Positions 13 to 62,755 are shown, numbered from the stretch's first letter. The stretch: DNA of 64,000 nucleotides from Phoronis australis (GCA_002633005.1 NMRA01000056.1:9165-73164), one strand, 5' to 3'. Made by a program: numbers and translations. The notes: generated by a model not told the origin, from the letters alone.

Positions 13-178
13 ATAGGTTATTACATGTTCTGATGAGTAGTTATCCCCCTTATCTAGAGCCCTCATGGATTTTGTAGAATTATATCCCTCGAGGCTAACG
101 CCCCTCGGGCGATAATTCTCCAAAATCCACTCGGGCTCTATATAACGGGGATAACGACTTCGCCATGTAATAATCTAT
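13..178. mobile_element. Small palindromic (hairpin) MITE-like element
   Basis: The ends ATAGGTTATTACATG (13-27) and CATGTAATAATCTAT (164-178) are inverted. Internal arms also pair (TTATCCCC/GGGGATAA, TAGAGCCC/GGGCTCTA, TGGATTTTG/CAAAATCCA). Confidence 0.6.
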
Positions 179-9327: not shown

Positions 9328-11032
9328 GATTAAAGAGCATGAATCCTGTGGACCCAGATGCGAATACAACATTAAAACAGTTTCAAATGTGGTGCAAATA
9401 ATTGTGTCGTTTCAGTTTTCACTGCCCCTGTTACGGCACTTGACTTTTGAACAGCGTGCAGCTTGAGGAGTCATAAAAAGTGGACATCATGGGTTGCGAG
9501 ATATTAGCACGGCGGGTAGAATCTATCGTTGGCCGTGAGCATTGAGGAAACTGTCGCTAGTACATTACGCTGAGTTAATTACTCTCGTTTTTCACGACCC
9601 CAAAAATAACGAGCGTAAACCATTCTTTTTGAAGCACAGTAACATTGAAAAGAACATTTAACCGGCAGTAAACTCGAGTTCCCACGTTGCTATTGAATAA
9701 ACCATTGGTGCTAAAAAATATTTCACTGCCCTTTTCAGCATTTAGAAAAAGAAGAGCTTGATGTTGATAAACGATAAGCAATCTATGGATAAACATGGGA
9801 GCTCCGAGTTTGTTGCCGAAGAGTTGGACACCACCTGCTTTGTCATTGTTGATGATTTTAATGCTGGTGTTATCGCCAGATCTTTGTTCTCCAAACACTT
9901 GCTTAATTTTTGTAATGACGGTAAACTTATGTTTTCTCGTTTCTCAATCGCTGAATAGATTCCTTGTGATAGCTATGTATTCCTTAATCTTTATGAGCCA
10001 CTTCATTTTCGTGACTTGATCATTTTTGTTCTTGTTCAGACTTTCAGGATATTTCAGTTTGCTATGATGAGGATGATCCCTAGTGTTCAGTTTTCTTACA
10101 TTTCACAAAAATCCTTAGCTGTCTGTTTATTCAAATTATAATTCTCGTGGTCCTCGTTTGAAATGGGAGACCGTTGTCCAAGGATGATTGCTCTCTATTT
10201 TGTAATCTTACTGATTCTGTTTAATTAGGCTAATGTTAGTGTTTTCGGATTTTGTTTTGTCAACGGGCACTGTGTAAACAGCATGACCACGTGACAACCA
10301 CTCAACAAGCTTACCGTAACACCTTACCATCTGTGTGAACCATTTCTCTATTCTAAAGTTTAGAGTGCACTAGTTTATTCTGCACTATTTATCACTTTCA
10401 ATGTTGTAAAGCTTCTCTTCCTAACATTATTTTTCGTCTTTTTGCCGAGTTTCCATTTGTGCTAACCCATTGGTTGTTGCTATACGTGATTCTGATTTGG
10501 TCTTTCAATCGCAGATTCGACTGAGACAAAATCTTTGTATATTTCCTGGTATAACCTGTAGCTAGTCTTAAATTTTTTAGCTGTTTTGACCATACATATG
10601 TCTTATGTGGACTGTTGTATATTTATATGGCATTTATGCAATGAAACATATTCATTCTATAAAACATATTCAAGAAGCAAACTTTTGTTTTTAAGGCCCT
10701 AAAAAGCATGGAATTAGTCAACAAATTCGAAAGTTATTTTGGTCATTCTATATACGCACCGACCTTTGGCCTTGGCTTAATCCCGGGAATAGTAGACTTA
10801 GATATCTTTTCATCTCCAGTCTTAGAACCCCTGTCTACAACCTATCATACTACATGCTAGGAGTTTTCCAACAAGACATTTTGGGTGTTAAAATCATTTT
10901 ACTGCATTTTACGTAAAGCTATTCTTTGGTTTCTAAGTGTTTGTTCTGCAATTATATATAAAAAGTTTAGGCCCCCAGAACCAGAATATGTGTGTTTAGG
11001 TAATTTTTGAAAAATACTCGTATTTGCGTAAC

Positions 11033-19600: not shown

Positions 19601-22600
19601 TCAAGGTGCTTTTCCTGGAAATGAAAATAATTCCCTAAAAGTGAACACCTGTATTCCTCTGAAAGGTCTCTCCTAAACACGAAAATCTCCCCAGAAGCAA
19701 ATTTATAGTCCGGTTTGGCTGCACATTTACTTTAGGTTATCGGTAAGATGAATTTAACCCAAAATTCAGATGTGGGCAACGCCATTTAAACTTGGCTTTT
19801 TGGATCCCTCTTTTAAAAGATGAATGCTAACCTTGCAAACCTTTGCTGCATTTTCACGTAGCCTGCTTACTGATTGTCAGTTGAAAAGAAAAATTTTTCT
19901 TGGTGACGAAAATCTGTCAGTTTGAATTACATTATTGTCTGGCAATTATATTTGAGTTTGAATGGCAAGACGCAAGGCTTTCCAAGCTTGGAATTCAATA
20001 TTCAAAAAGGTTAGTACTTGCTCAACAAGCTTATTCAAGGTTTTTGACTACTTTGACTTACTTTCTCATCTGTATTTTTTGAGGGGAAAATTGATAAAAG
20101 TAAATTCTGTCCATGATATGGTGGGCTGAATAGATGAAGACTTCCTGTAAACAAAGCAAGATAGAAACATTCCCATGGTGGTAGTGGTGATGATGGTGGT
20201 AGTGGTGATGATGGTGGTAGTGGTGATGATGGTGGTAGTGGTGATGATGGTGGTAGTGGTGATGATGGTGGTAGTGGTGATGATGGTGGTAGTGGTGATG
20301 ATGGTGGGGTGATGATGGTGGTAGTGGTGATGGCATTTGATGTTACCATTTTTCGTGCAGGATAATGAGTGTCATGGAAGCTATGCTAGTTGAAGATGTG
20401 GCAGCCAATAAAAATATTGGGCGACACGGCGGGTCGCACATCATTGAGCACTGCAAGGGGTCACCTGTGCGCATTCTAACTCACTGTAACACTGGCTCAC
20501 TGGCAACTGCTGGATATGGGACTGCTTTAGGTGAGAGTTCAGTCAAGGGTAAAGATATTTTTATCCGTTCGTCTTCAGATGGGCGGTATTATGATATAGC
20601 CTCCCGCATCCATCATCGCGATCGTAAAAGAGGGGGCAGTTTCGAGCAGGAGAAATTCTGTATGTAGTCAGACAAAAACAAACTTAAATATTAGTGGTGA
20701 AAATGCTGGTGCTTATGTTTTCAACTGTATCAAAGTAGAGTGCGGCTAGCTTATGCAATAAATCTTATGCATTATGGTAGACATTGTCTATCACACGCAG
20801 ATGTTCTACAGTTTTGTATGCATGCCACGGGGAAGTAACGCGTTTCTTCAAAATAGTGCAAAGCCTTTGAAAACGTCGTTCAACCGGATCGTGATTTCTT
20901 TTTTCAATTCAGCCTCTAGGCTTTGCATCTTCGATAAAATCTGTGTTCCCGGCTTTTGTTTAAATAAAATCTGAAACGTATGAGTTTGAGACTTCTATTC
21001 TGTACTTCAGGTCAATGTCCACACCATTTGTTTCAGGCATGGTGTTATTTATGCAAAATGGCTTTTGCGTCAAGATTGGATGATAATGTTGCAGTCAAGC
21101 GCAATGGTTTGCATTGCTCTCGTTAGTTTTTAAAGTTGCGTAATAATTGTCTTTTTACCATTTTGGTTTTGAGTTGTTGGAAAGACAAGATTTTATGAGT
21201 TTTTACAAAGTTCTGAGGTCATTGGTATTTGATTGCCAATGATTTCAAATTTCCTCGAGGACATGGATTTAACTTTTCCACGGTTATTGTTAAAGAATGC
21301 ATGGAGATGCGGCTTTGGCGATTTTTTGTACCGGGGTCAAAGATCACGATTCGTTTCAATGTATAACATGCAAATAATTTGATTCAATTTTAATTTCTTA
21401 GGACCGTCTTATTCCCCATTCCAGCGACTTGAAGACTGTTGTACCTTAGATTCAAATTTGAAGGCACCATAATCTACACTCAGTTACTGTGCTCAGTCAG
21501 TGCACTAGCAGATTTGTAACTTTGTTTATGCTTTCAATTAATATTGGTTGAATAATTACGTTTATTTGTTTAATTTATTTTATTTGGAGGAGTAGCGTGG
21601 TAGAGCGAGAGAATTTGAGTTTTATTGTGTATCAAGCACATTTAGCTTATTCTAGCCTGTGCACTTAGCCTTCAAGTAAATCAGATTTTGCCGTACTCAC
21701 ATAAAATCTCTTGGTTTGATAGCATCTGACTTTTGCGAGTTTTGTTGTAAATATGTCTTTCAAACAGTTTTTGTACACTTGATAAAAATTTGTTGTTGCA
21801 GAGTGGCAATCATATTTAGCAGATGCTTTTTGCAAAATAGACTATGAATGTTTACAAGGAATGAAACTTGAAACACTTTGGTATCACGTGTTGTTATTTC
21901 CAGGTGTTGTTCGGAATGTTCATGAGCTAGGAAAACTGGACCACATTTACTGCACAGAGACCAGGCCATACAACCAGGGTGCACGCTTGACGGCTTATGA
22001 GCTTGTCCACGACGGAATGCCTGCAACACTAGTCTGCGACAGCATGTGCTCTATGCTGATGAAGGATAAGGGTATATCGGCAGTTGTCGTTGGTGCTGAC
22101 CGTATTGTTGCTAATGGTGACACTGCCAACAAAATTGGAACATACCAGCTGGCAGTCGTCGCCAAATATCACGGTGTTCCGTTCTACGTGGCGGCCCCGA
22201 CTACGTCCATAGACATGACGAGGAAGTGTGGCTCCGCGATAGTCATAGAGGAGAGACCGCATCAGGAGATGACGTCCATCAAAGGCTTGCAAATTGCCGC
22301 ACCAGGTGTCGCTTCATTTTTGCTTTGATTTTCATGCGCCTGCATATACAATTATGTGATTGCATGTTGTCATCATCTTTATCTGACTTCCAGACCTGTA
22401 TCTGATATTGAAACTCTTACAAAGTGTTTGTTAAATTTGACTGGTGTGTTCCTGGGAATGTGACTACGGATAAGAACAAATTTCAGACAAATTTGGCTAC
22501 TGGTGTACCAAGTAATTGCAATTTTATAGTTTGGGATTTGTTTTTAAATTTTACCAAAAGCTTAATGCAAACTATATTATGTTGTATCAGGATGGTATTG

Positions 22601-23489
22601 TTGCCCACCAACTTTCAGATGACTCCGATGTGTTCTGCTGCCCCTAGAGACAGTTTTCATTGTAATGCATCAGCATTTTATTACCAACTGGAGAATGAGT
22701 TGCCTTCAATATTTCACGGATGTGTCAAGCCATCCTGGAAGTGGTATCAGAAATTTTCATTCCCGTGCCCAACTATTTTGAAGGGTGGGGTTCAGTTTTG
22801 AGATAAGTTGCCATTTCAGTTTCCCCCTTGTCTATTAGAATGTGTCATGTTCATTCAAGATGAAATATTTGTAAGATTTTGAACTGTTGTTTGGACCATC
22901 TGAATTTTATGTTTAGAGCTTTTGGACGTTTCGCTCTGACCTTTGAGGTAAATTTAATGAAATCCTCAATACCTGTTGATGACTTTTTGTGTTTTCTTTA
23001 TGAATATGAGTATTTCTGCTTATTGTATCCAAATAAGTCGAGAAAGCTGCTGTCGTCCGTTTTGTCTTAAACTTTTGTCTACAACATGAACGATATATGT
23101 TTGGGTCAACGCTTAGAGCATTTAAATTATGAATCTGACAAATCAGGTGACTGCTGTGGCAAAAACAATAGAACATTGGCATTTAAGTACTTGAAAATTC
23201 AGGGTTGTGCAATGGCTGAATGTTAGTGGTATACTGCATGATTTTATCCTCTTTGTCGTACTTATTTCAGAATTGAGGGCTCTGAGTACACATTTATGAT
23301 AAGTTTTGCATGGCAAGTCCGACAGTTATTCAACTTGAGCGTCATTCTCTTTCAGGGATTGGTTGCTGGAATCCTGCATTTGATGTCACACCAGCAGAAC
23401 TCATAACAGGGGGCATTGTGACCGAGTTTGGAGTTGTCTCCCCTTCACACCTTGAAAGCAAGATGATGGAATGGCTTGGAGCCAATTAA
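16638..23489 (+). CDS. MRI1: Methylthioribose-1-phosphate isomerase (methionine salvage)
   Basis: Exons 16638-16820, 18752-18987, 20361-20530, 21904-22305 and 23356-23489, all GT-AG with consistent phases. Hallmark motifs: [82 protein letters not shown]. Confidence 0.97.
16853..17472. mobile_element. Long-armed palindromic MITE in MRI1 intron 1
   Basis: TIRs CCATAGACAGTGACCAC and GTGGTCACTGTCTAGGG, with arms inverted over ~280 bp and a possible 2 bp AA TSD. Partial relatives at ~17690-17960, ~61430-61660, ~61940-62105 and ~40110-40145. Confidence 0.75.
19100..19512. mobile_element. Palindromic MITE-like element in MRI1 intron 2
   Basis: Left arm GGTCTAAT..GAAATTGAACTCAAAATT..ATTCTAGC..AACTCAAGATAAG is inverted against right arm CTTATCTTGAGTT..GCTAGAAT..AATTTTGAGTTCAATTTC..ATTAGACC. 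Confidence 0.6.
20175..20332. repeat. 18 bp tandem repeat (TGGTGGTAGTGGTGATGA)n
   Basis: About eight near-perfect copies ending ~28 bp before the MRI1 exon 3 acceptor. This is the source of the spurious poly-His and poly-Pro ORFs. Confidence 0.95.
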
Positions 23490-38200: not shown

Positions 38201-39208
38201 CAGACTAAGGGCTGAGAATGACGATGCCAATGATTTTTGAACCTGCTATACAGCTGAAGTCAGGATTTTGTTCTGTCTCTTGACCAACGTTCTTACCTGT
38301 TATGAATGGAGTATTGATCACACATGCGCAGATATAAAAAACCTCCAAGGGACAATTTGAGGCTATGAAATAAGGCATTCTGGATGGCCCAAGCCAAGTA
38401 AACCAAGAAATCAAACAAAGATTTAGCACATTGAATTAGGTAAGAACATGTTAAACAAATACACAACAATAACTCAAAGGAAAGAGTCACAGTTTTTGCA
38501 CAATAAAACAAATATCAACCAGTCTCTCAGACATATCAGGTCACAAGGTCATCAGGAGAAAAATGACCATCTGATCCGATATCACCCTCGAGATCGCTCC
38601 ATAGTGTTGTAGAAGACAATAAAAGTGCAGTCGGCGAGTAGCCGCACTCTTCAAGGGAGTAACATTTGCTCTCAAGCCATTCATTTGGTAGTTGTTATTG
38701 ATTTATACAACTTTCTTATACAGGTAGCTGGCTGGTCCAGGCTCCATTCCTGATGGTTGCCATTCACTGGAAGATTCAACTCGACAACCAATGTTGTAAA
38801 TGTAATTGATTGATAAATACTACAGTCTACACGCTCAGCCACAACAGCACGAGTCTGCCTGGACAAATAATTACCTGTGTGTGCATAGGACACTGGTACT
38901 TTCCATAGACTAACTTGTGCAGAGGCTGATGCAAATAGTTTACCGAAAGCCAGTGGTAACACCATAGTGAAATAATATTTGTTGGAGATGTCTTCCGATT
39001 TCCTGACTCGCCAACACTTCAATATGGGCGGTAAATAAATAGTCACAGAAACTAACTGAACCATTGCTACAGTTAGTGGGTATGGAAATTCACTCAATAG
39101 TGTCTTGACAATCACATTACCACCAGCGCTCAAAGTATACCAAACCAGGCACAGGAATAAAATCCGAAAAGCGTCTTTGTATGGATGACTGTCTTCATCA
39201 GCTGTCAT
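32228..39208 (-). CDS. SLC35E1: Solute carrier family 35 member E1-like (TPT / nucleotide-sugar transporter family), ~382 aa
   Basis: Exons 39208-38875, 37307-37237, 35824-35687, 34654-34529, 33845-33600 and 32461-32228, all GT-AG with consistent phases. Motifs: [84 protein letters not shown]. Confidence 0.93.
32609..32676. repeat. 34 bp tandem duplication
   Basis: TGTCGTTCCTCACGACC(A/G)TACTCGGTGCATTAAA occurs twice with one mismatch. Confidence 0.9.
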
Positions 39209-39325
39209 GTTGGCACATGCGGATCCGGAAATACAAAAGCGCTCAGGAAGTTTTCTCTGTTTGAAAACGAATTTAGACGTTGCCTGAAGCTGAATCAAGC
39301 TAGAATAGAAGACGTAAGAAAAGTA
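39209..39325. promoter_or_regulatory. Putative compact bidirectional promoter / 5' UTR region shared by SLC35E1 and CLP1
   Basis: 117 bp between divergent ATGs (39208 minus, 39326 plus). ETS-like cores CCGGAAAT (39225-39232) and CAGGAAGT (39244-39251); no TATA box seen. Confidence 0.65.
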
Positions 39326-42300
39326 ATGACAGAGGAAAGTAAATCGAATGATGTACGTTTTCAGCTTTTTTATCGTAACGCAATGGACGTTGTTGATGCG
39401 TTTTAGGGTGTTTCACACTCGTTTGGTTTGAGTATGATATTGTAATAGCCGGGAATCTAACTAGCGACCCCGATTTATTTTTAACCGGCGAGCGTGCTAA
39501 TCATTCAGCTGATACTAGGCAATTGCCCGTTAGCGAGTGGCTAACAGATGCTCATATATGATTCACCGGAAACACGTTTCTCAACATTCTCCCCTGTCCT
39601 ATGAACAAGCGCGCCACCTGGCAGGTGAACACAAGATTCTACTCCTGGAACATCACCTGACAAGATTCTATTCCTGTACTTACCTTACCAGCTGAGGATA
39701 GCCGCCTGACAGATAAACCTCAAGATTGTCTCGCATTAAAGTCCTCGACTCCTGGTCTAGGATCACCATCAAGCATGCTGTCTGAGGTCCGAGGGTCTGT
39801 GTAGTGCTTCATCGGTATATCATTCGTTTGCCGACTACGCCAATTGTCGTAACAGCCAGAAATCGAACAAGCGACCTCGTTTTAACCGATTGTTGTAATA
39901 GCCAGGAACCGAACCAGGAACTCCCGATTTAACCAGCAAGCGTGCTAACCTTTCAGCTAATAGGCAATTGCCCGTTAGTGAGTGGCTAACTGAGGCTCAT
40001 GTATGATTCCCTGGAATCACGTTTCACAACAATACTCAAACCAAACACAAAAAGACAGACACTGATCAATCAATCAGGTTTGGACTAGAGTCAGAACCTA
40101 GACATTTCCACCTTCTCAACTGGCCCCAGTAGAGGCGGTGGCCATCCCATAGGCCCTCCATTCTTTCAACAAATTAGGTATTTGTGTACAATATGGTGAC
40201 ATTGACCTGCGCACATGATTTTGGCTACTTGTTCAATTCCTCGCATCATATCAATTCAAATATACACGAAAATGTCTCATACCCCGTTCCTTAGTATTTT
40301 GTCATCAAATTTCTGTTAGATACTGCCATGTTGAATGGAAGGAGCCGTCTGGTGGCCAAAAACTGAACTTATCTACCGACACCCATATTCTTCAGAGTGT
40401 TGCTCTTCCAGACCTATAACGTCGACCCCGGGCCCGAGTCCCAAAGGTTCGAATTCCTATGATGGCCCTAATACGCGTCCACTAACAAGAATCTGGAAAA
40501 AAGGAGTTCTTTTTGAGCCCCAAATTCATGAAAAGGTGCTGGCAAACACCATTCAGATTTGATGATGCTGTTTCATTTATAAACAACAGGTGTTGCTGTA
40601 ATCTTGAGTTGAGCAAACATCGCGGTGTCAAGTGGGAAATAGTGTGACCAGAAATTTGATGATAAAATAGTGAGGAAATGCGGTAGGGGACACATTCACA
40701 TATTTTGGAATGAGAATGATAGGCAGAATCAAATGATACCAAAATCATGTGCATGCAGTGTACTTAAACAGTTACTATTTTTCTCTCAGGGTAGCGGTGA
40801 AACGACCTTTAACCTGCAACAAGGAACAGAGCTGCGGTTTGAGGTGGAAGCGGGTGCAACTGTTCAGATTGAGGTACAAGCTGATATGGTAGAAATGTTA
40901 TCTATTGTATTTGCCTATACTCTTGAAATAAATACAGGAATGATTACATATTTGCATTCTACATTCATCAAAAGCTACTTCACTTGATGGCAATAGAGTT
41001 TTTCAGTCTGTTCGTCCAGCTGCCCTTTAATTCGTATTGGATATGGATGGAGATTGAAAGCTGTGATAGGGCTTGACAGCACTTTTGAAATATGTATTCA
41101 TCATGCTGTCTAATTATGTTCAAATGACAAAAAGTCAATATGGTAAAAAGTTGAAAATTGATAAAAAAGGCAAAAGACATCCAGTTTCTCGACCAGTACC
41201 ATGGAGACCCATCTGCACTAATCTTGTAAATAAAACGCAGGCCCATGCGTTTATAGGTAAACGAAACACTTGAACCAAATTTTATTAAGGTATTACATTA
41301 GTTTGAATATGTCTTGTGCTGGAACCTTAATGCTTTGAAATAGCTAGACAAGGATTTGGTTATGTCTGTAGTCCCTATTGGAATTATTCACCATCTCTAT
41401 AGCCAGTCATGTTTATCGAATTTTTTTAAGTCACTTAAAAATTACTTAAGGTTATGTGGGACCTTGTCGACAAGTTCGCGTATTTAGTCAAATATCTACA
41501 AAACAATATTTAATTTTGTGAAAGTAGACAGCTTGTAGAATTTCATGTTTGACTTTTTACCAGTGTGTCATTAATTGGGTCACGTGACCATGTCTTTGTA
41601 GTAAAATTTGGCAAAAAGAAGGGTACCCTGATAGCAAAACAACGGTATCGATGATCAAAATGTTCCAGTTGAAATCTCAAAAAATGACATACAGTATTCT
41701 AAAATGTCATTTTGTTTGATGCAACTATCATAAATTGATAAATGTCCTGTTTTTGGAGCTCCTCGTGCAAAAGTGGAATGTTTTAAAAACAATCCCAGAC
41801 ATCCTTTTGGAAGACAATGCATAAAGCATAGTATCTGAAAATTTCGGATGAATCCGATCAGACATTTCTGGGATACAATGTTCTGAAGTTAGCCTAATTT
41901 GTACATTTTTTTAGGGTTCTACAAAACCTGAAGAAGTATGGTAACCTTTTGACAGTTCAGTTGTTTTTTCATAGTACAAAGCCTTTTAGCAATCTCTTCT
42001 TCTTTTTCTAGGTAACAAATGGAACTGCTGAAATCTTTGGAACAGAACTCGTTAAGGGCAAGACCTATACGTTCCCAACTGGCTCCAAGGTGGCCGTTTT
42101 CACCTGGCATGGATGCAAAATACTGATATCCTTTATGGTCTTTTTTACTTTCCCCTGACTTGTATAGACTTTTTGGGGTGCCTAAATGGTGGGGAAGGCT
42201 TCCACAAGAGGACACCAGTACTGTGGGTCTCGTGCATTTCGGTATGCAAATGCCACTCGAGGGCTGTGTTGCACGGACTCAAGAAACTCACGAAAATGCA

Positions 42301-45300
42301 AGATCGTGCATTCTGTGTGAGGTATATCCATGTTTTACAGGCACAGCTTTGAAACACACTTAGCTTTTTGGGAGATTTTTTGGGTCTACGGTATGCAAAC
42401 CAGGTCTTTTCCATATCACTTTTTGTCTTCCTATGCTTATTTTCTTGTCAGCTTTCCATTTCATTGTCACACTTGGAATAGTTGTCAGTACCTTTTCCGT
42501 TGATTAAACTATGCCTAAATTTTGGGTTTTTTGCTACACAACGTAAGAGCTGTATTTCAAGATTTTTGTAGCTTACTAATTTATTGAAATAATAAGAAAT
42601 ACATATTAACATTATGAAACTTCGCCCAGAAATGGCCACGAGCATTGTATCTGAGGCTTTAGACATACTGATAAACAATTTCGAGATATAAACTGGTAAC
42701 ACAACAAAAATTGGGTCAAATACTTTTCATGATACGTACTATTTAGACTTGGCTTCAATACAAAATGAAACTTTTATGCATAAGCAATGCAACGTACTGA
42801 GGCAATTCGATATTAATTTCATGGCTAAAGTTGCTGGAATCATTCCTAAGAGGATTGTATTTATCCAGTGAATTGTGCGATTCACTAAAACAGAATTAAT
42901 ATCAACTATTTTTTCAAGGATCTGTCATTCTTGATAATTAATTGGACAGTCAAACAAAGAATAAGGTTAAATTCAGGATGATGTTGTGCAGTTTGCAGAG
43001 TCTATTTTAGGAAAATTATGAAAGTCAACAAATAAATAACATCCTGTGTTTCAATCTGATCATCGAGGTCAGTTTGCCGAAATAACCTCTTAAACAGCAG
43101 TTTGGCAGCTCACCTAATCTCACTGTTAAATAATTAGCTTAATCTAAAAGAAGTCTTAGAACACTTTTTTCATATAAAGATCAGGTTCATATATCTGAAG
43201 CAAGTCTTAATCTAGCATTTTTCATATCTTATCAAAGCTGGGATGCCTATATAGAGGCCAATTCCTAAAACAGAAAGCACAAGTTGTTACGGTTTGCACT
43301 CTTTTGCCAGAAACTTGGCTGCAATTTTGTATCACGCATTGAATACTTTAGTTGGTGGCATGTTTGTGAGGGTACATTTCAGTAACCAGAAATGGTTCAG
43401 TTGTCATGGACACCACAATCTTGTTGCTATTAAAACGCCTTGACCCTGAGCACCTGACAGGTAAGGCTGAAGTTGCTTACGTTGCCAAGGAGACACCAAT
43501 GGTGCTGTATGTAAATACTCACGCCGCTTTGGAACAGATGAGACAGAAGGCGGTGGAGGAAGAAACGAGAGGCCCTAGGGTAGGTTGTGTGGGAGGCAAT
43601 CAGGGCCCGGGGTTTAACATAGGCCCTGGGGTAGATTTTGGGGGTAGAGGCCAGGGCATGGGGCCTAATCTTCGAACTCAAACTCCAAATTATTTTTAAC
43701 GTTTTTTGTTCTACAAGCTCAGTTTTCAGACACCTCAAATGATTTCCTTCATTTTGGCTATTGTTGTGAACCGATTGCTACCCTCCAACGTTTAGGGAAC
43801 TGATTAGTCTAATTTATGATCTGGTGATTTTTATTGTTCCTCACTGTTGGTGTTACAGATATTTAGCTTCTTCAAACTCTTAATATTTAATTGAATAATA
43901 TGTAGCTGTTGATTGTAAAGTGTAAATTTTAACTTTTAAGTCAGTTGATAGTATAAATCTATAAAAATGACAATTTTCAGGTAATGGTGGTTGGTCCGAC
44001 AGACGTCGGTAAGAGTACGCTGTGCCGTATGTTATTGAACTATGCTGTCAGGCTGGGACATGCTCCAATATCTGTGGACCTGGATGTAGGACAGGTAGTA
44101 GCAACACGCAATTTTATCGTCAGTTTAGTCCAAAAACGTTGCTCACAGTCCTTGGCTTTTCTCAAGTCAAGTTTGCTGATGAGTCCATCCTATCTACCTG
44201 TCTTCACAACAGTTGACTTGCTGTAGGGTTTTTCTGGAAAATGTGATCCTCCTAGTGTTGTCTGAACGTTTAACAACAAATGTTCCCTGGTGCATATAGG
44301 TACGTTAAAAGTTAGGTAGCAAGTGTTTGATCCAATCAAACCGAGGGATTTTATCCAGGTCGGGCGAAATCCAACTTATCTGAAGGACTGAGTACAAGGA
44401 CTAGTAGTCGAACAGTGGTATTGCAGGACTTTGTTGTTGTGAACATTGGTTTGATTTAGGCACATCCAAATAATGAGATTTTTTTCTTTATTTGGCAAAA
44501 GTGGAATGCAGCATAACATGACCCTGTCCTGCAGCACTTCAAAATGTATTTCCTGCAACCATATATATTGTAGATATTAAGCTAAGTTCGTAATTCTAAA
44601 TGAGTTAAAATGAATATTTCATGAAATGAGAACAGCAATTACAGACCTTGCTACACTAAGTCTAAGCTAGGCAAGGTGCTTTACCCCATGCTGCCTCTTA
44701 GGATATCAAAAGAATTCTGGTGACAGTAAGGTATGCTCCAGCCAAGCAGCAGGTCAAGTATATAGTTACACGAAGACATGATTGAGATAATTGAGCATGT
44801 GAATCTTTGTTAGGAAGTAACATGCCTGAAATTATTTCCATAAGATTAGGTATATTGCATTGAGAACACAAAGGTTATGGTAATGCACTGCCTGCAGGTG
44901 ATCAGGGGTGAGTGGGGTGTAATTTGTAAACGCAATTAATCAGACATGTAATTGGCGATTTTTTACATAATCTGAAAACTAAAATTACTTCTGTATCAAT
45001 ATTTTAATGAGTTTCTATTGCATGAATGTATGATTTTGAACTTTCTATTCACGACATGAACAGTTTTTATGCAAGTTTTATTTTGTATTACTCAGAGATT
45101 TAACTATACAAAACATAATATTTCCAGGGTAACATAACCATCCCGGGCACTGTTTCTGCCCTGATCGTGGAGCGACCTGCAGATGTGGAGGAGGGTTTCT
45201 CCCTGAATGCTCCTGTGGTATTTCATTTCGGTCACAAGTCCCCCGGTGACAATCTCCCGCTGTACAAACTCCTAGTATCCAGGCTGGCTGAAGTGGTCAA

Positions 45301-48300
45301 TATACGATGTGAATCAAATAAAAAAGGTGAAATGTACTGCTATGTTTTACCTTATCGGCTTATAGTAATAGCTGAAAACGTCATCTTTCTAAAGCTCACG
45401 TGTTTACAAAAACCTCACTTTATGTGCTAGTTGATATATCTGTACTACGAAAACTGCTTATAACAAGTAGAATTTCTTTTATTTTTGTTGATATTGACAA
45501 ATGAAGGTTAGCTGATCCGCCACGTCATATTATAGATGAAGCTTTAGTGTAATTTCTATCTCAAGAAGTTGTGCATGACCGCTGCGTTTTAAGATGTCAT
45601 TATTTGTTGGCAATTAACTGGCATAGTTGCAAACTACTGAATCAATGACGTTACCATTAATTGGAGCGAATATCTGTAAAGCTGTGTAGAAGACAGACAT
45701 GAGTATGGTCATGTTTCAAATCTGTCCAATTTAACAGAGTAATAAAAGTGTATACTGTGTTTACATGATGACTAAGACGCTAGCGTTTTCACAAGTGTTT
45801 TATCCAGTATCAAAAAGTTCAGTAATGTGAACTGTTCATGACAGAATTCACCATAATAGTAAATGACCTCTCATGACCCATCATGATGGTTATTAACTGC
45901 CATGATGGGGAAATAGTATTTTTCTGATTATTTGTAGTCAGACTGCTTACTGTGAACATGGGAAAGAGTACCTTTGTTCAGAAAATGAATTTGTTCCAGA
46001 GATTGAATGTGTTTCGACTATTGGCATAAATTTTTGTGTCTAGCTGAAATGATGGCATTTTCGCCACTGAAAAACTGTTACCGTTTTTGCTCCTTTTGTG
46101 CACCTAGTGTCACTATTTGGATGAAGAACTGTTTGATCTCTAATATACAATTCTAAAAATTTTGTTATAATGACTATTTGTCATTTAACCCCTATTGCAA
46201 GTGTTTGTTTTATACATCCATGTGAGGTGACACTGCTATTCTCTCAGTTCCATAGTTATTGGCGTCTTTTCAGCTCTGTACAGTGGTGTCGTAATCAACA
46301 CATGTGGCTGGGTAAGGGGTGGTGGATACGCCTCTATCGTGCATGCAGCCAGTACCTTTGAAGGTATAAATTAGATAGTTTATTTCAATCAGTAGGTTAG
46401 GTGACAGCTCTTGTTACAATACATTACTAACAAATTCAAAGTAGCATGAGAGTAAACTTATGTGGAAATTGAACACTGTATAGCTTTTGTCATGTCATTG
46501 CCTTGGCACATCAATGTAGTTATTGCTGTAACACACACAGGCTGTCGGTATGGGTTAACTAGTTTAATGCAAGTGAAAGATGTGTTGGTTTAGTAGGTAA
46601 TGAGATATTGGCAAATGAGGCATTTATTCGTTGCCAAATTTGAGCAATGTAACTACTGAGTGGCCACTCGTGGCAAGGGCATTCTATTGAGCATTCTTTT
46701 TCCTATCAACTCGAATTCTTTTATTGCAACCTGTATTTCTTTTCTTTGCTACTGCAGCTCTCTTTTCACGAACGCACAAACCACAGCTGTTTCTAGCAAT
46801 GTGCTTCTCTCACAAGCAGTCGTTATGCAAAACTGCAAAAAAATTGTTAAAATGCCAAGTGTTAATGCCCGTGCAGTTTTTGACAAACAAAGACTAGCTA
46901 TCCTGAATTGGATGCAAGAGAAAAGAAAATTTGCCGTAAAAATGCCTCCTTTTGCAAGTTGCACTCATTCTGGTTTTGTGGGAGGAACAAATTGACGTAT
47001 GTCATCTTCATAAGGTCTTAAGTTTGAAAGTAGGTGAAACATTGATGTGCTAACATTTACGCTTAAATTGAATGGCTTCTATTAATATTGCATTTTTCAG
47101 TTGATGTGATCATCGTCTTGGACCAAGAAAGATTATATAGTGAATTAAAAAGAGATATGCCTGATTTTGTCAAAGTCATCCTACAGCCCAAATCTGGAGG
47201 AGTGAGTCAACACATTCTTAAACTTTAATAAGCATTCTTTCACCGAATTATTTTCGTCAATTCCAATTCATCAGAAATTGTTTATTACTTTCATTTTCAC
47301 ATTTCCCATTACTCTCCTCTGTTTGTAAAGACTATTAGTGGTACTTATGTGCTTAGTATTAGGACTCTTAACTGTGTTGTTTTATTAAGTTCAAACCATT
47401 TGTTCGGCTTCAATTTCAATAGTGAAAGTGTAATTTCAGTATTATCACTAACAGCTGTGTATGTTCCCCAGTTGCTTGAAAAGAAGCTGGTGATCAGTGT
47501 TATCATGTTTGCAATTTGCCGTGCTGTTCTCATCCCATCTGGTATAGATCATTCACAGTTTCTAGTTGGGTTAATGGATTGTCATAAATATTAGATGTTT
47601 TCTAAACTTTGTATTTTTAATAAAAGATAATTGCAGGCGGTCTGGTATACGTTGTACCATATGTGTGCAGGCCCTCTGTATTGATCATCTGGAACCATTT
47701 TATATAGTTATAACCGAGCTGAAGAGCTAGGTACCTGACTCAAGGGTCTAGCAGTGTACTTGAGTGGGACTTGAACCCACGACCTTAAAGAAAGCGGACA
47801 CTTGTACCAATAGCCACACTGCCTCCTCCTAACATCGTATTTCATTACAAATTGTTTTTAAGTTGCACATCACAATTCTGGCAACAAATCATACTGCTTT
47901 TCAAAGCGACAATAAACACAGATTCCGTCAAACAAGCGAACTTTGCTTTGGACCACTTTCCGCTATAAAATTGTTCTCGAGTTCCTTGCAAAAGTCATTT
48001 CCAGGCTGACAATTTGTTATTCTTTGAGACCATCTCAGCATGTAAAGTGACCCACCATGACACAAACTAACTCGTAGGGCTTGATCTCCAGTATTATTGA
48101 GTGGTCATTTCTTTCAATTCCCTACAATCACATCTAACTAACTGAATTTGAGACCAATTTTTTAAATGTAAAGTGGTCTTACTCAAAAGCTGTTTTTTCT
48201 GATATGAACCAGGTTTACAGCTACTTTTAGTGGTATTGTTATTTCGATTTTGCATCATTTCATTTGGTACATTTTTAACTCCCACCAGGTGGTAGAGAGG

Positions 48301-52817: not shown

Positions 52818-55800
52818 TTACTTCAATACTCGAACCGCCTCGACTCTCAAATGTTTCGCCAAATGATTCTGAAAGAACACAAAGTATAGATGATTGAGAC
52901 TTATTGCACACAAGTCATGGTATTACAGAAAACTTCACAAGAGAACATACTAGTTAATTAAATTACTCTTGGTCCATATCGATGATCTCAGCACCTCCAT
53001 TTAAAGCCTTTTCAAGCCGTTTTCAATTTATTGCACTTTTTATGAAGAAATTAGCACAAATTGCCCAGAAGTGTTATCAAAGTCATGACAAAAATCATGA
53101 AGGAGTTTACGCACAGCAAAAATGGTGTAAGAGATCTGTTGCAAAGCTGAAGATTAAAAAAAATACGAATGGGCCGACTATCACCTTGAAGTAAATAGAA
53201 ATATGAGACATGGAAGCTCAATTCAGAGTACATCAGATATGAAATGCTTTCGTCAGAAATTTTTGCTCCACAGTCACCAGTTGTAATGAGACGATACTCT
53301 AACAATAGTTACTTGATACTCAGTACTCACAAGATGAGTGATCTGGTTCGGATGATACGGTATCCCACCCAACTTGTCGCACATCTCCATGTGCATCCTC
53401 TCGGGGTCGCCAGCCACCAGGACATTACCCCCGTCCTCCACCTGTGAACGGTAAGGATTAGCTGCCATTCTGATGGAGTTGCTTACTATGACGCCAACCT
53501 CTTAACCTGATACTTCACAAACATAAATCCCAGAATCGGAACCTCTATAAAGTCACCAGAATTTCACAAAACCGGGCTTTCATGGCCACTGTGAGTTTCG
53601 AAAAAATGGTTGTTTTGCACGAATTTTTCCTATGAACTTCTTCGATGAAGTCGCACGAATCTCCCAAAATTGAATCATTGTGGAAGCGTCCCTCCCAGTG
53701 GCCAGTTCAAACAATATACTGGAGATAAATTAGGAAATACTAAAGACTTCACTCTTTATCTGGGAGAATTCTGAAAAATACTGGAAACTCGCCTACTATC
53801 TTGGAGAGTTAGCATCTTTATAATCATGCTGCTTTCTATTGCTGAGCTCGCCACCACCGAAATATATCACAATCGTAACTAAATTCATTGCTCAAATGCA
53901 AAGTGATTAGATGTGCATTGCCTGCACATGAACATTTGACAGGCTTATCACAAATCTGTCGATGCGCAGTGAATCATTCCTGGCTTGTCTCACTTAGTTA
54001 AATGTTGATGTAAAAACTAGGTCAATCTTAAAAAATTCCTATATCTGAAAAAAAATTTGTTGAGCAGTTTAGTTATTTGTGTTCGTTCACAATAGTAACT
54101 TATTTTGATAACTAGATGCACTAAGTACTTGAGTCATCCAGCGCTGACAGTGGAATACTAAAATAATAAAAACTTTACACCAGACTTAGTCAATTTGACT
54201 GACAATGCAGGACTGGGTTACATGTAATGGTAATGCCAAGTATTATTTATATTTAGTCCGATAACCAACCTGCCATCAGTCAAACTTAGGAAGCTACCAA
54301 TTACATTTACTTCCACCAGGTGTCACTGACAACCCAGTCACCAGTCAGTGATACTTACATGAGGCAGGCCCCTGGCTGTGTTCATAAAGGTCTGCAGGCG
54401 TTCGCTAAAGCCTGGCGCGAAACCGGTGGGGTTGATGGCCATGAAACACTGACCCTGGGAAAAAATGTGTTAAAGTTCAGTCAGCAACTCTCTCACCCAC
54501 TGATCCAATATCTCATTTTCAAATGGAAAGTTTGCATTACAAATGCAGATACAGTAAAATTTCATGTTAGAATATAAACAAACCAAATATATCCAATTTC
54601 ATTATTCTAAAATTATTATGCTTTATCGTTGTATTACACTGTATCTAATGTTATACTATATTTTGAATACTAAAATCTGCCTTTCCAGCATAAAATCAGA
54701 GTTCCAAATTAAGCATAGACTCTAAATTCTCATTGGTTCGCAAAATAATAAAAACGTAATAGCAGTGGGCAGGCCGCGCATGTGGGTCCATTGCACTGAT
54801 CACTTGGAACCATTTTTTGTGCTTTATTAATAAATTCATAGAACCGAGCTGAGGAGCTAGAAACCTGACTCAAGGGTTTAGCAGTGTGGCCCAGTGGAAT
54901 TGGAACCCATGACCTAAGCACAGAAAGCGGGAACCAATCACAACAGTTCCCACTGCCTCCGCATTGGTTCGCAAACTCGACATCAACATTTGGAGTGTAT
55001 TTTTCTCCATTCAAAAAATCAACGTCAAGAAATCTAGTAGAGATTTGTAAAACCAGAAACCGGGTTGTATGTGTGTCTTTTTCTTCTTTGAAGACAGTAG
55101 GTGACATTGGCTGATCAAAATACGCAACTAATGTTTCACCAAATGTGTTAAATCCAACAGCCTCACGATCAACTTGAGTCAAGATACTGTTTTTTTCTTA
55201 GTCTATGACAGCCACATTGACGACAACCTATATTAACAGTGTATTTACTACTAAATACAATTTTCTGTGTGGTCGAAGGCAGAACAGTTACATGACTGCA
55301 GTTTCAAAGTTCGTTTTCCCAGTTTTCATGCACACCAACACTCTCCACCAACACACAGAAACAATTTTGTTTGATCATAATTAAACACAAGATTTATTGA
55401 TTTTTTATATGAACTCATATCATGGAAGGTTTATCATCAATCATGATTAAACTCCCGATTTATCACAGACTGAACAATAGTAAACGATCAAAAGAGGTTC
55501 TCCAAGAATGACGCCATGAATGATGGTCAGACTAACAATCAGTTATGATAAACCTGATACAACTTCATATCACCCAAAATGAATCCAACTTTGGGATATT
55601 TTTAGAAACCACCACCAATGAACAAACATGATTAGAGTGACTGAAAACATAGAAAGTATTACAGTAAAATCTCACCAATTTTGGACAAAAGTAATTGCCA
55701 ATATTGGTCTTTTTCATTTTTCAAACAATTCTAAAATTGTTTGGAATGTCCACAATTTCTCAAAAACATTGTCATAAGGTAGGTATGCCAACAGACCTTT

Positions 55801-58800: not shown

Positions 58801-61800
58801 TCATGCCTTGTTTTCCATAACACTGTTTTTAAAATGTTCCACTTTTGCCAGAGGATTATAAAAATAGAAGAATTTTGATGTTTTCATCAAAAAAGATCTC
58901 AAGTCGCATAAAACGAAAACGGAACAATATTTTACAAAGCTGAAACAGCATTTTTAAGGTATCATCTTGAACATTCATATTACTTGAAATTTGGGGTGAT
59001 ACCATTGTTTTGCTACCAATTTATCTTTTTTGCTAAATTTTACTCGAAAGACATAATAGCGAGACTCAGTTGAAAGCAGACAGGAAAAAGTCGACAATCA
59101 AATTCTACAGGTTTCTTTCATAAAATCACATATTCTTACTGAGTTGAAATCTACAGATTTGTAGATCGATATGTCAATAAGGTCTTACATAACCTTAAGG
59201 CAAAAGGTAACGCTGAATGAAATCAAACCAGGAAAATTATTTTGTTTATCAACCTAGTTGTACTATCACACACACAACTTTGGCTAATAGTAAGTGAATA
59301 TTGCTGAAGATCTGGTCTTCAGTTGTGCTTTGTCAAATTTACACAAGTCTCCACAGTAACAAAAAGACAACATGACAGTACAGATGAATTAACGCATACC
59401 TGTTTACTTCTTGTAGGTACACTAAGCGGTGATGTGTTTGTAAATGACAGACCCTGAAAAGACAATAATTATACTACAGGCGTTTCATTCATATGATGTT
59501 CTAATAAAGCGTGAAGCTGTATTTTTTCTAAATATTAAGGTAATTCTTCAACTATTCCATAAAAAATATGTACCAAAATTCCCAGTGTTCAATATGCTAA
59601 AACCCAAATAATTGCCCATAAATAATAAAAAATTACAAAGACAGTTTTGTTTTAAGACAGTAGTGCAGTACGTACGAGTAATTGGTAATAAATATTCTAA
59701 CATTTTTGTGGAGAAATTTCATAAAAAAAATTCCTTAGTCTCTGCAATTTTCTGTTCTAAACAGGTGAAGAATTGCTAAGTATGTAGACATCAGGTGAAG
59801 TTGCGTGCATGTATTTGATGTGTTGTTTCTGTCACGGAATATTAATAGCACATATAGCGTGTTGAGTTGAAGGTTCAATCAAAATTCTTCACCTTACACC
59901 AAACTGTACAAAACAAGCATGCATTTCAGTTTAAAATGTATCTGCCGTCTGACAGAAAATTAACTTTATTTGTTATTGAACAGTTACCATAAAGCTTCTA
60001 ATAGAAGCCCAGGCATTCACCAGTTTCAGACATGATCCACACTTGACCTCTATTAGAGACCCAGCACTGACAAACAGAAAAAACAAATTTGCCAAATGTC
60101 TGCTATATGGTTGCTACACAGCACCCAAACAAAATGGCAGAAAAGGCCGATGTTGGAATCCCAGCTTCTATTGGAATCTGGCATTTATCAAGTTCAGCCC
60201 AACTGACGTTTGTCTTGATCATTTTCGACACAAAACTCGTGCTTATAAACATTTGGCAATTTTGTTTCTCACTAATTTGACCAAGCGATCACAGAGACAA
60301 CGAATTAGCGTGCAGGTTCCACACTAAATCAAAAATTATTTTTTGACAGAACGCTGGAGGATAGCAGCTTTAAAAGGATACTAAACCCAGTTTTGGCATA
60401 TTAAAAGATACTAAAAACAACATTCCCATCCATTTCTCTGAAACCTTCGACAACCCTCAAAAGTTCAGAGTAAAATTTGAAAACTTCTTTCAAAGTGCGC
60501 TAAATGGACAAATGTAACCTACGTTTTTGGTGAACTACACGGCAACTGTGGTAAAAGACCACCCACCAAGGACCATATCCAATCTGTGACATATGGAGCA
60601 TGAGGTTTTAATTGATTCCTGCATTCAACATGAACAGTTGACACCAATGACGCATTAGCTGGTGACAGAACAAGGATTGGTTGAAATCATCATAACAGGG
60701 TTTAGTATCCTTTTAAGTGAGGTGTGGCAGTGACCTTGACCTATGATGTTATCAGCCACTCCAAGAGATTCTTACCAGTAGTCCATATTGCAGAGCTTGC
60801 AAACTGTAATGACCAGCAATGCCATAGTGATTAGAGCGACGTGCGACCACCATGCCAATACCAGCATCAATTGCTTTGTCAATGGCAATTTGCATACACA
60901 TGTTACCAACAACGGGGCCCAGCAGGTTGTGGCCATCGACAAAAGCCGTGGCAACGGTCTCGTTGATGACAGCAGGCTCGCCTGATCCAGAACACACCCC
61001 ACTCTCGATATCATGAACGTACATGTCTGCAACAAATCAGCACTTGCTGAGAATTAAATGAATTTGACAATTGCATTAAATGATTGGAACGACCAATGGA
61101 TACTGTACTACATGGACTGTGGTCAGGTGTCAGTGTGTTAATACTGAGTACTGTTGAATACTTATAGCATCAAAAGTCCAGTGAATAAAAACATTCATTT
61201 TAAAGCACAGAGAGTTAGAACTTCAAGCCATTCCATGTCTGTTGTAGACAAGAAACACAGGCTTGCCTATCAACCAACCCAAGTAAGCAGGTGTACAACA
61301 GTAATGCCCACATGAACAGAAACAAAGCAAGACTCCACTCCCTAGTTTCCATTGGGGAATGGAGGAATGTAGTCAGTGTTGACGTTAGACAGGGCTCGCT
61401 CCTATTTTAATATTGTGCACGCCAGGAGCACGCGCAGTGTACAAATAACCAGTTGCCCATTTTGTGCAACTGAACGAAAGACTGTTTGAAAAAAAGTTTG
61501 ATTACGGGAGTATTTCTTCGAGTTGGAAGGATTAAAAACATCAATGGCCTCCTAAGGTGTCCCTCTGTGTGCAATATGTACTTATAGCATCGTGACTATG
61601 ATGCCTGTTTTGATCAGTGTTAGGCATAATTCGCTGAAAAGCTTCCGGCATATGAAGCAAATTTCACACATCCCGGGTAGTTCTGCTCATCACCTTGTCA
61701 TGAAACTAATATCAACATATAGAGCTAACGACTGGCCGGGGTGCATGCAAATCTGTGAGTTAACAGACATTCACCTTACCTATTGCAGCCATTTAAGTGA

Positions 61801-62755
61801 AAAACAATCTAATAAATGTCATTTTCTTTCATAATTCTCCACCTTTTGTCACAAAGAAAAGTCTGTCGTCCCTTTGAAAACAGTACGCTCGTGTCACGCG
61901 TCATTTCCTAATTTTTTTGCGACATCTCTCAAAAGATGAAGGTGCCCCTCTATGCGCAAAAGGAATTTATAGCAATGTGACTTTGATGCTTTAATCATAG
62001 TGAGGCATAATTCACTGAAAAGCTTCTGGGTGTATGTAGCTCCTATAGGAGCATCAATGTCCCTGGACTCCCTCCAGGGGCCAGTTGAGACTGTGGCACT
62101 GTCTGTGTTGACACCAGTGAAATGACACAACATGTCACGTGGTTTACCAGCATCCTCTGCACCCGGCCGTCAACAGGAGACGACATATTCTTGTTCAGCA
62201 TCCTGTTTGGTTGATAGGTGCACCTGATTTTCCCTGGACCTTAACTACAACAGCCTCAATGGTAGACGCAACACATGTAAGTTCAGGTTTTCCTGGATAA
62301 AATCCAAGAAGTAATCAGGTGATAACAATTTCTGCACAAAACTCGAAAGGCATGTACATAATACTCCTGCAAACATGTAAAGAGGAGCATTGCCAACACT
62401 GTACACGATGTATTAATCCTCTGCATTACCTCATTAACAAAATAACGCACCTATTTAAAAAAAAAAAACAAAATAAAAATGTCCTCATTAACAGATTACG
62501 GTTCGTTGACCTACCGAGCCTGTTTACACCATGGCTGAAATGACCCCTGTAATCAGCAGCAATCAAGGTGTCAGCCAAAGTTTCAGCATGTTCTATCTTA
62601 ATGTCGGTACTTAACATGCAGCGAATTGTGAATTCTCTGATATCCTCTCTTTTCACGACAATGCCTTCGCTGCTTGTCGAGTACAACTTGGAAAATTGAG
62701 CAAAGTGTCGAAGTTGGCATCGCAGCTTCGACACTTGTTTTGCTACACCGGCCAT
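52818..62755 (-). CDS. Ldh_2 family (type 2 malate/L-lactate dehydrogenase-like, YjmC/AllD-like) NAD(P)-dependent oxidoreductase, ~385 aa
   Basis: Exons 62755-62515, 61026-60776, 59453-59400, 58602-58504, 57857-57792, 56911-56842, 56322-56204, 54454-54359, 53441-53331 and 52868-52818, all GT-AG with consistent phases. Motifs: [63 protein letters not shown]. Confidence 0.93.
54790..54960 (-). mobile_element. tRNA-derived SINE, copy 2
   Basis: Shares AACCGAGCTGA.GAGCTAG..ACCTGACTCAAGGGT.TAGCAGTGT...GAACCCA.GACCT...AGAAAGCGG...CACTGCCTCC with 47690-47828. Confidence 0.65.
58689..59194. mobile_element. Kolobok-like TTAA element, copy 4
   Basis: TTAA|GGTTATGCAGGACCTTA ... TAAGGTCTTACATAACC|TTAA. 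The interior is inverted relative to copy 1. Confidence 0.75.
60374..60712. mobile_element. Second TTAA-flanked MITE family (Kolobok-like)
   Basis: Perfect 15 bp TIR AAGGATACTAAACCC / GGGTTTAGTATCCTT with TTAA on both sides. Confidence 0.8.
61430..62105. mobile_element. Two partial right-arm copies of the 16853-17472 MITE family
   Basis: 61480-61660 and 61940-62105 both align to 17230-17470 (AAAAAGTTTGATTACG.GAGTATTT, GAGGCATAATTC.C.GAAAAGCTTC, GGGGCCAGTT.GAGAC). Confidence 0.65.

What the first reader, a model, noticed from the sequence alone, without database searches (positions are those of the whole stretch)
39438..40031. Miniature LTR retroelement with tRNA-derived Pol III-type LTRs and a tRNA-Ser primer site
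Seen on the minus strand: an LTR TGTTGTGAAAC...TATTACAACA (~140 bp) whose 3' half is tRNA-like (TAGCTGAAAGG A box, GGTTCGGTTCC B box). Then TGGCGTAGTCGGCA, ~240 bp of non-coding interior, AGGGGAGAA and a second LTR. Known: TGGCGTAGTCGGCA is complementary to the 3' end of eukaryotic tRNA-Ser (…TGCCGACTACGCCA). Small-RNA-derived TRIMs are rare: Cassandra with 5S rRNA and, from memory, a tRNA-bearing group named Ajax. Inference: a SINE/LTR hybrid probably transcribed by Pol III and mobilised by an LTR retrotransposon that uses tRNA-Ser; possibly an undescribed family. It lies 85 bp into CLP1 intron 1, next to the bidirectional promoter.
Basis: partly seen in the sequence, partly recalled or inferred. 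Interest (0 to 1): 0.75.

Follow-up and report, generated by a model that had tools for sequence, protein, structure and literature searches.

The report
Helenus-type miniature retrotransposon in an intron
This is a worn copy of a small, gene-less, multi-copy jumping element in an intron, with tRNA-like promoter boxes in its end repeats; it fits a class described in 2024 (Helenus), whose intact copies are likely read by RNA polymerase III and likely copied by a Gypsy retrotransposon's enzymes, so it is a new example of a known kind.

Summary
Real, but of a known kind. The minus strand of 39438-40031 holds two LTRs (141 and 149 nt; 120 of 140 aligned bases identical), a 14-nt tRNA-Ser primer site, a non-coding interior and a purine tract. 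It lies 85 bp into CLP1 intron 1. In DNA contigs the LTR core is about 3,200 times single-copy depth and the primer site about 240 times; other copies show LTR-primer and purine tract-LTR junctions. This copy's A and B boxes are degraded and Rfam/ARAGORN see no tRNA, but most other copies have canonical boxes. It is a new family: its primer site is absent from the published set. By eye, many animal Helenus LTRs keep that palindrome with changing centres, which may be an RNA dimer signal. No Pol III transcript or clean target duplication was shown. The scan noted Helenus-type elements before in other genomes (27 notes, 12 or more genomes).

The parts
40032..40046 (.). Flank arm 1 of a perfect 15-bp inverted repeat, directly against the 5' LTR start; host-site sequence, not part of the family
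   Evidence: I2; no other place of 63,100 tested in the window exceeds 10 nt; no repeat depth in bin 40034-40089
39891..40031 (-). 5' LTR, 141 nt, TGT...ACA ends
39975..39989 (-). Short inverted pair (5-bp arms, 5-nt spacer) upstream of the palindrome; one mismatch here, perfect in the 3' LTR (39544-39530)
   Evidence: sequence; most other copies read like the 3' LTR at 39979
39963..39972 (-). Perfect 10-nt palindrome (12 nt with a G-U pair) ending 2-3 nt before the A box; identical copy at 39518-39527
   Evidence: not significant alone (12% of shuffled LTRs have one)
39949..39959 (-). A box, one mismatch to TRGCNNARYGG in this copy; canonical in most other copies
   Evidence: place 39951: 201,905 of 202,596 depth in X1 carry the other letter
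39905..39915 (-). B box, one mismatch in this copy; 44 nt from the A-box start
   Evidence: loose ends at 39931 in 4 of 4 runs hold a canonical B box
39845..39890 (-). 46-nt duplicate of the LTR 3' end with a second B-box-like word (39869-39859); private to this copy
   Evidence: (D2); depth 86 against single-copy 46 in bin 39866-39921
39829..39842 (-). Primer-binding site, 14 nt complementary to the 3' end of tRNA-Ser, 2 nt after the ACA end
   Evidence: human tRNA-Ser template in PMC3299991
39596..39828 (-). Non-coding interior, 233 nt
   Evidence: longest ATG frame in the whole element 45 aa; depth 199-1,721 against 46
39587..39595 (-). Polypurine tract abutting the 3' LTR
   Evidence: other copies show purine tract-LTR junctions (joint 40031 to 39597, 2 contigs)
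39438..39586 (-). 3' LTR, 149 nt; degraded A box 39511-39501 and B box 39462-39452; private 6-nt insertion; end reads ATA rather than ACA
   Evidence: table 4 (6 letters left out at 39474 in other copies)
39421..39435 (.). Flank arm 2 of the 15-bp inverted repeat, 2 nt from the 3' LTR end
   Evidence: single-copy depth 46.2 in bin 39362-39417
39326..39352 (+). Host: CLP1 coding exon 1 (9 codons); intron 1 is 39353-40789, exon 2 is 40790-40873
   Evidence: stranded RNA depth on both exons; no splice joint row was among those shown
38873..39208 (-). Host: SLC35E1-like coding exon 1, head-to-head with CLP1 (start codons 118 bp apart)

Best explanation
This is a decayed copy of a multi-copy, non-coding LTR retrotransposon (TRIM) whose LTRs carry tRNA-type A and B boxes, a new family of the Helenus kind; intact family members are likely transcribed by RNA polymerase III from the 5' LTR and likely copied in trans by a Gypsy element primed with tRNA-Ser. 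Shown: the LTR-PBS-interior-PPT-LTR anatomy, high copy depth, LTR-PBS and PPT-LTR junctions in other copies, canonical boxes in most other copies. Inferred steps: (1) TFIIIC/Pol III starts about 14 nt upstream of the A box, near the palindrome, and reads through the interior into the 3' LTR (this copy has no T4 run on that strand); (2) the RNA is packaged by a Gypsy partner, primed at the PBS by tRNA-Ser, second strand primed at the PPT, and integrated with a 4-bp duplication; (3) this copy landed in a palindromic site in CLP1 intron 1, then aged: both box sets degraded, the 5' LTR end was duplicated (or two copies recombined), and the right junction lost a few bases. It is now likely a passenger that is spliced out with the intron.
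For: Anatomy and statistics. Repeat depth in DNA run X1 at 80% likeness: single copy 46.2; LTR core bin 147,173; PBS bin 10,947; interior bins 199-1,721; same pattern in X1 and X2 at 90%. Other copies join a purine tract to the LTR start (2 contigs) and a single LTR end to the PBS side (joints 39857 to 39926 and 39843 to 39926). Loose ends past 40000 carry an LTR-type start in 4 of 4 runs. A box canonical in nearly all depth at 39951; B box canonical in loose ends. The commonest B-box loose end shares 22 identical bases with the Helenus-5_PeMa LTR (1 hit in the supplement). Sizes (LTR 141-149, PBS-to-PPT 256, total 594) lie within Helenus (311-1263 bp) and close to mussel Ser-primed families (LTR 141-156, interior 226-268). 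Animal Helenus share PBSs with Gypsy only.
Against: No tRNA call for this copy by ARAGORN or Rfam. No clean TSD. No second full-length copy was seen: no genome, none in the window, none among 43 of 43 metagenome word hits. RNA does not show a discrete Pol III unit: over the LTR core, element-sense depth is 49.6/47.9/49.5 against antisense 110.9/96.1/189.6, with no start/end pile-up; library selection is unspecified, so this is weak. Summed contig depth is not a copy number (tool caveat). LTR core depth is over ten times PBS depth, so much of the repeat may be solo LTRs or other families. The partner element was not found.
Confidence: 0.87

Rival explanations
1. An ordinary Pol II TRIM whose LTR carries a dead tRNA/SINE head that plays no part in transcription.
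For: This copy's boxes are all degraded. RNA shows both strands and no defined ends. Kojima states that Pol III function of Helenus is not validated experimentally.
Against: Most other copies carry canonical A and B boxes; box spacing is 44 nt; the same box-bearing layout is kept in published families of several phyla.
Confidence: 0.2
2. The high-copy repeat is mainly a tRNA-derived SINE, and this locus is a chance or rare composite of two SINE copies around a spacer.
For: LTR-core depth (147,173) far exceeds the depth at the LTR 5' ends (10,593 and 36,622) and in the interior. The window holds other tRNA-box repeats.
Against: PBS 2 nt after an ACA end and PPT flush with a TGT start; the same junctions in other contigs; the main loose ends run on to an LTR-type start about 70 nt upstream of the A box rather than into mixed flanks (only the best-supported loose ends are shown, 437 were not).
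Confidence: 0.06
3. This copy has been kept as a regulatory part of the CLP1/SLC35E1 bidirectional promoter, with the flanking 15-bp inverted repeat looping it out of the CLP1 pre-mRNA.
For: It ends 112 bp from the CLP1 start codon and 230 bp from the SLC35E1 start codon. The arms are perfect although the LTRs differ by K2P 0.16; arm duplex -20 kcal/mol. The junction contig has full single-copy depth and no empty-site joint was shown.
Against: Zero RNA depth between element and exon 1 in 3 of 3 RNA runs (exon depth only 6-10). The boxes are decayed. An insertion into a pre-existing palindrome explains the arms; perfect arms by chance at this divergence have a probability near 0.1 (own estimate). 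The intron holds two other repeats.
Confidence: 0.07

Closest known systems
Helenus (TRIMp3), animal families of pteriomorph bivalves, nemerteans, ostariophysan fish and coelacanth (Kojima 2024, PMC10886601; read main text parts 1-4 of 6 and passages, supplement parts 1, 5, 6, 7, 10, 11 of 11, and three searches over the whole supplement)
   Same: Two short LTRs with A and B boxes in the 3' half, PBS for a tRNA 3' end, PPT, no ORF, under 1.3 kb, LTRs outnumber interiors. Same hairpin-palindrome-A box module in the LTR (by eye). 22-nt identity around the B box between this family's commonest reads and Helenus-5_PeMa.
   Different: PBS is a different tRNA-Ser type: 0 hits in the supplement, where five bivalve families use two other Ser PBSs. 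No T-rich stretch after the B box in this copy. Duplicated 5' LTR end, no clean TSD, 15-bp flanking inverted repeat. Host could not be placed among the listed phyla.
Cassandra (plants) and Ajax (nemerteans) (PMC10886601; PMC7215508 passages)
   Same: TRIM with a Pol III-type small-RNA promoter inside each LTR; Cassandra's transcript starts and ends inside that unit, the model assumed here.
   Different: They carry 5S rRNA (type 1) boxes; this has tRNA (type 2) boxes and no 5S hit. Ajax uses tRNA-Leu and 5-bp TSDs.
biv-TRIM of bivalves (PMC6934838, passages)
   Same: Small animal TRIM with solo and tandem forms.
   Different: biv-TRIM has no canonical PBS, and 'box' has 0 hits in that paper; this element has a canonical PBS and A/B boxes.
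Ty1 PAL1/PAL2 dimerization palindromes (PMC6844567, abstract only)
   Same: Short self-complementary words near the 5' end of an LTR-retrotransposon RNA, shown there to be needed for dimers and mobility; a functional analogue for the LTR palindrome.
   Different: Ty1 is an autonomous Pol II Copia element; no sequence relation is claimed, and no dimer role has been tested for Helenus.

Membership tests
TRIM | Two direct terminal repeats with TG...CA ends | tested here: met
   141/149 nt, 120 of 140 identical; 3' LTR ends ATA in this copy
TRIM | PBS just after the 5' LTR and PPT just before the 3' LTR | tested here: met
   PBS 2 nt after the duplicated LTR end; PPT flush with the 3' LTR; same junctions in other contigs
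TRIM | Under 1 kb and non-coding | tested here: met
   594 bp; longest ATG frame 45 aa
TRIM | Interspersed multi-copy family | tested here: met
   Depth about 3,200x (LTR core), 240x (PBS), 4-37x (interior) of single copy in X1; a second full-length copy was not seen directly
Helenus | [quoted passage not shown] | tested here: met
   TAGCT and GGTTC present in the 5' LTR, YGG missed by one base here but canonical in most other copies; 44-nt spacing. No covariance-model tRNA hit for this copy
Helenus (animal) | 4-bp target-site duplication | tested here: inconclusive
   Junctions fit a 4-bp TSD only if the right junction lost 3 bases; 3 or 5 bp fit as well. No other copy with flanks was available
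Helenus (animal) | PBS complementary to a tRNA 3' end and shared with a host Gypsy element | tested here: inconclusive
   14-nt match to human tRNA-Ser; host tRNA and Gypsy partner not searchable. Ser-primed Gypsy elements exist in animals (PMC13524379 passages)
Helenus / TRIMp3 | Transcription by RNA polymerase III | not testable with these tools
   RNA-seq of unspecified selection shows both strands and no defined ends; not validated for published Helenus either
A published Helenus family | Sequence match to a listed consensus | tested here: not met
   0 hits for the PBS and three LTR words, 0 for two more; no match by eye among 51 bivalve, 18 vertebrate, 3 brachiopod, 3 nemertean and 1 ctenophore records. 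Word search and reading only, no alignment; Repbase/Dfam not searchable
Cassandra / Ajax | 5S rRNA-derived boxes in the LTR | tested here: not met
   No Rfam hit at E<=5 in 39000-40600; boxes are tRNA type
Retrozyme or twister-bearing TRIM | Self-cleaving ribozyme in the LTR | tested here: not met
   No Rfam ribozyme hit; a decayed or unmodelled ribozyme is not excluded

The most novel reading that the evidence does not exclude
The palindrome just before the A box is the RNA dimer-initiation signal of Pol III TRIMs, and it marks one old animal Helenus lineage rather than separate births. Read by eye in the published consensus set, 18 of 18 vertebrate, about 33 of 51 bivalve and 3 of 3 nemertean LTRs (0 of 3 brachiopod, 0 of 1 ctenophore) have an 8-13-nt self-complementary word ending just before the A box. 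Ten different palindromic centres occur (AATT, TTAA, ATAT, GTAC, GATC, TCGA, CATG, TGCA, ACGT, CCGG) and G-U pairs are tolerated. A protein site would keep its sequence and a plain hairpin would not need a self-complementary loop, so pairing between two RNA copies for packaging into the partner's particle is the natural reading. This element would extend that lineage to another invertebrate group.
Probability: 0.3. Interest if true: 0.6.

Novelty: new member of a known kind. Interest (0 to 1): 0.33.

Why it matters
As filed, it adds one more family, with a new primer type and an unplaced invertebrate host, to a class described in a single 2024 paper; that is useful for repeat and tRNA annotation but not surprising. 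The paper says it is not known how TRIMs keep their dependence on an autonomous partner. If the covarying LTR palindrome is a dimer or packaging signal, it would offer a short, testable cis element for that question, and would argue for a single deep origin of much of animal Helenus. The 15-bp flanking inverted repeat remains a local curiosity.

Tried and rejected
No whole genome is held, so copies with flanks, solo LTRs, TSDs and partner Gypsy elements could not be extracted. No second copy in the window. A 21-nt LTR word: 0 hits in metagenome and viral contigs. A 17-nt word gave 43 metagenome loci; none of 43 aligned beyond 28 nt, so all are chance. No RNA holder listed by the run index; raw RNA runs of the same species label were laid instead. 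tRNA and ribozyme models: nothing on the element. Whole-LTR folding: z -2.57 and -1.51, with different structures, no cloverleaf. The palindrome is not significant within this element alone: 12% of shuffles have one, and homodimer energy is reached by 8-10% of shuffles. Absence of T4 runs on the element strand has a chance of 0.095, and the commonest loose ends of other copies do show a T4 run between the boxes. Host placement: SLC35E1 exon 1 hits at 44-65% identity and MRI1 at most 64% over 352 columns; a tree of 41 rows (26 named and 14 unnamed of 120 listed hits, plus the window) put the host in no supported group. The flanking inverted repeat as transposon TIRs was rejected: no extension, no outer duplication, no repeat depth. 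Literature: 'Helenus' with 'LTR retrotransposon' from 2024 gave 4 listed papers, only one describing the class; 'TRIMp3' gave that paper alone as relevant; palindrom/inverted/hairpin had 0 hits in its main text; searches found no report of the LTR palindrome. Figures and supplement parts 2-4, 8 and 9 were not read, and Repbase/Dfam were not available; either could hold a match.

Full report
Observation. The minus strand of 39438-40031 reads: a 141-nt repeat starting TGT and ending ACA (40031-39891), a 46-nt second copy of that repeat's 3' end (39890-39845), two spacer bases, a 14-nt PBS (39842-39829), 233 nt of interior, a 9-nt purine tract (39595-39587) and a 149-nt second repeat (39586-39438). 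The two LTRs match at 120 of 140 aligned columns with 10 gap columns; K2P distance is 0.16, and the alignment score of 201 compares with a maximum of 79 in 2,000 shuffles. The PBS is unique in the window at up to 2 mismatches, against 0.11 expected. It equals the first 14 letters of a human tRNA-Ser template oligonucleotide, that is the complement of the tRNA's 3' end (PMC3299991, one passage); the host's own tRNA could not be checked. The longest ATG frame is 45 aa.

Setting. The element lies in intron 1 (39353-40789) of CLP1, 85 bp from the donor, antisense to the gene. SLC35E1 starts head-to-head, 118 bp from the CLP1 start codon. Stranded RNA covers the CLP1 exons and is zero at 39362-39417 in 3 of 3 RNA runs, at exon depths of only 6-10; no splice-joint row was among those shown. 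The host is an animal that I could not place: a 41-row MRI1 tree left it outside every supported group.

Family. No genome is held, so I used sequencing runs. In DNA run X1 at 80% likeness, single-copy flank depth is 46.2, the LTR core bin 147,173, the PBS bin 10,947, interior bins 199-1,721, and the 46-nt duplicate 86. The tool warns that summed contig depth is no copy number, but the orders of magnitude suggest thousands of LTRs, hundreds of Ser-PBS junctions and tens of copies of this interior; the duplicate is private to this locus. Other contigs join a purine tract to the LTR start (40031 to 39597, 2 contigs) and a single LTR end to the PBS side (39857 to 39926; 39843 to 39926), and the main loose ends past 40000 run into an LTR-type start in 4 of 4 runs. 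No second full-length copy was seen whole; searches of public contigs gave nothing real.

tRNA-like part. This copy is worn: the 5' LTR's A box and B box each miss the strict consensus by one base, the 3' LTR's by two (and sequence), and ARAGORN and Rfam call nothing. The family is not worn: at 39951, 201,905 of 202,596 depth in X1 carries the letter of a canonical A box, and the loose ends at 39931 hold a canonical B box in 4 of 4 runs. The boxes start 44 nt apart, as in a standard tRNA (own knowledge). The commonest B-box loose end shares 22 identical bases with the LTR of Helenus-5_PeMa.

Transcription. RNA reads on the stretch are mostly from other copies: 91-93% run on into unlike sequence and only 16 of 516, 8 of 461 and 12 of 494 are 99% alike or better. 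Over the LTR core, element-sense depth is 49.6, 47.9 and 49.5 against antisense 110.9, 96.1 and 189.6; at the PBS bin sense leads slightly (20.1/22.6/28.1 against 14.5/20.5/15.3); no place shows piled starts or ends. This looks like passive inclusion in host transcripts. It neither shows nor excludes a Pol III RNA, since library selection is unspecified.

Mechanism. Shown: the cis anatomy of an LTR retrotransposon without proteins, spread through the genome. Inferred, by analogy with Cassandra and Kojima's model: Pol III starts just upstream of the A box in the 5' LTR, reads through the interior and stops in or after the tRNA-like part of the 3' LTR; a Gypsy partner packages the RNA, primes with tRNA-Ser at the PBS and at the PPT, and integrates it. 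This copy has no T4 run on the transcribed strand (chance 0.095), while the commonest other copies have one between the boxes, which could be a leaky terminator. The duplicate 3' end and the 14% LTR difference point to ageing or to recombination between copies; the duplicate is about equally close to both LTR ends.

Comparison. Helenus is defined as a TRIM with tRNA-derived sequence in its LTRs; Ajax is the 5S group (PMC10886601). Size, boxes, PBS and PPT fit. The 4-bp TSD of animal Helenus is inconclusive here. No published family matches: the PBS and three LTR words had 0 hits in the supplement (positive control), and the five Ser-primed bivalve families use other Ser PBSs. Only that paper describes the class among those found. 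Earlier notes of this scan hold 27 Helenus-type findings in at least 12 other genomes and none like this sequence; they are unchecked and add no support. Their twister-ribozyme lead found no Rfam match here.

First, a perfect 15-bp inverted repeat hugs the element (39421-39435 and 40032-40046); no other place of 63,100 tested in the window exceeds 10 nt. The arms are not family sequence. The simplest reading is insertion into the middle of a 31-bp host palindrome, with a 4-bp duplication and later loss of three bases at the right junction; other TSD lengths fit too. Plant LTR elements show only a slight preference for short palindromes (PMC6911290, passages), so this stays unexplained. Second, both LTRs keep a short inverted pair followed by a perfect 10-nt palindrome ending 2-3 nt before the A box. 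Alone it is not significant (12% of shuffles). But reading the published consensus sequences by eye, the same module stands in 18 of 18 vertebrate, about 33 of 51 bivalve (6 with one unpaired central base, 1 borderline) and 3 of 3 nemertean LTRs (2 with an unpaired base), and in 0 of 3 brachiopod and 0 of 1 ctenophore; insect and fungal records were not scored. Five 9-mers spanning its 3' end and the A-box start occur 36 times in the supplement. Ten different palindromic centres occur. The paper's main text never mentions palindromes, inverted repeats or hairpins. Ty1 needs such words for RNA dimers (PMC6844567, abstract). No alignment or phylogenetic control was run on this, so it is a lead.

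Verdict. Observation confirmed; interpretation partly supported. A new family of a known, recently named kind, here as a decayed intronic copy. Interest 0.33; the dimer-signal and single-origin reading has probability about 0.3 and would merit about 0.6.

Noticed in passing
window 40211-40752: A roughly 540-bp repeat with long inverted arms (14 nt perfect at the ends; about 105 nt at 73%) in the same CLP1 intron; DNA depth up to 13,299 against 46, likely a MITE.
   Followed up: partly
window 40097-40161: A short high-depth repeat piece (4,658 in X1) related to the palindromic repeat at about 16887-17970 and 61385-62104.
   Followed up: no
RNA loose end at window 39967 (runs X5, X6): 23 and 19 reads with full agreement join a piece of the LTR to a sequence that opens with an ATG in good context; another locus may carry an LTR fragment in a 5' UTR.
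   Followed up: no
window 24869-24820 (minus); 47709-47826 and 54839-54960: Other tRNA-box-bearing stretches, probably SINE heads of different families; the last two are 75% alike.
   Followed up: partly
window 43575-43699: The CLP1 open frame at 43370-43699 runs past the conserved exon into a Gly/Pro-rich stretch not matched by Pfam CLP1_N; probably intron read-through, but RNA depth continues in bins 43526-44278.
   Followed up: no
window 170-9770: Three tandem paralogous units, each with a 216-aa minus-strand open frame, 80-95% alike at DNA level; the proteins were not identified.
   Followed up: no
window 16653-23474 (plus): A five-exon MRI1 (methylthioribose-1-phosphate isomerase) gene, used for the host tree.
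   Followed up: partly
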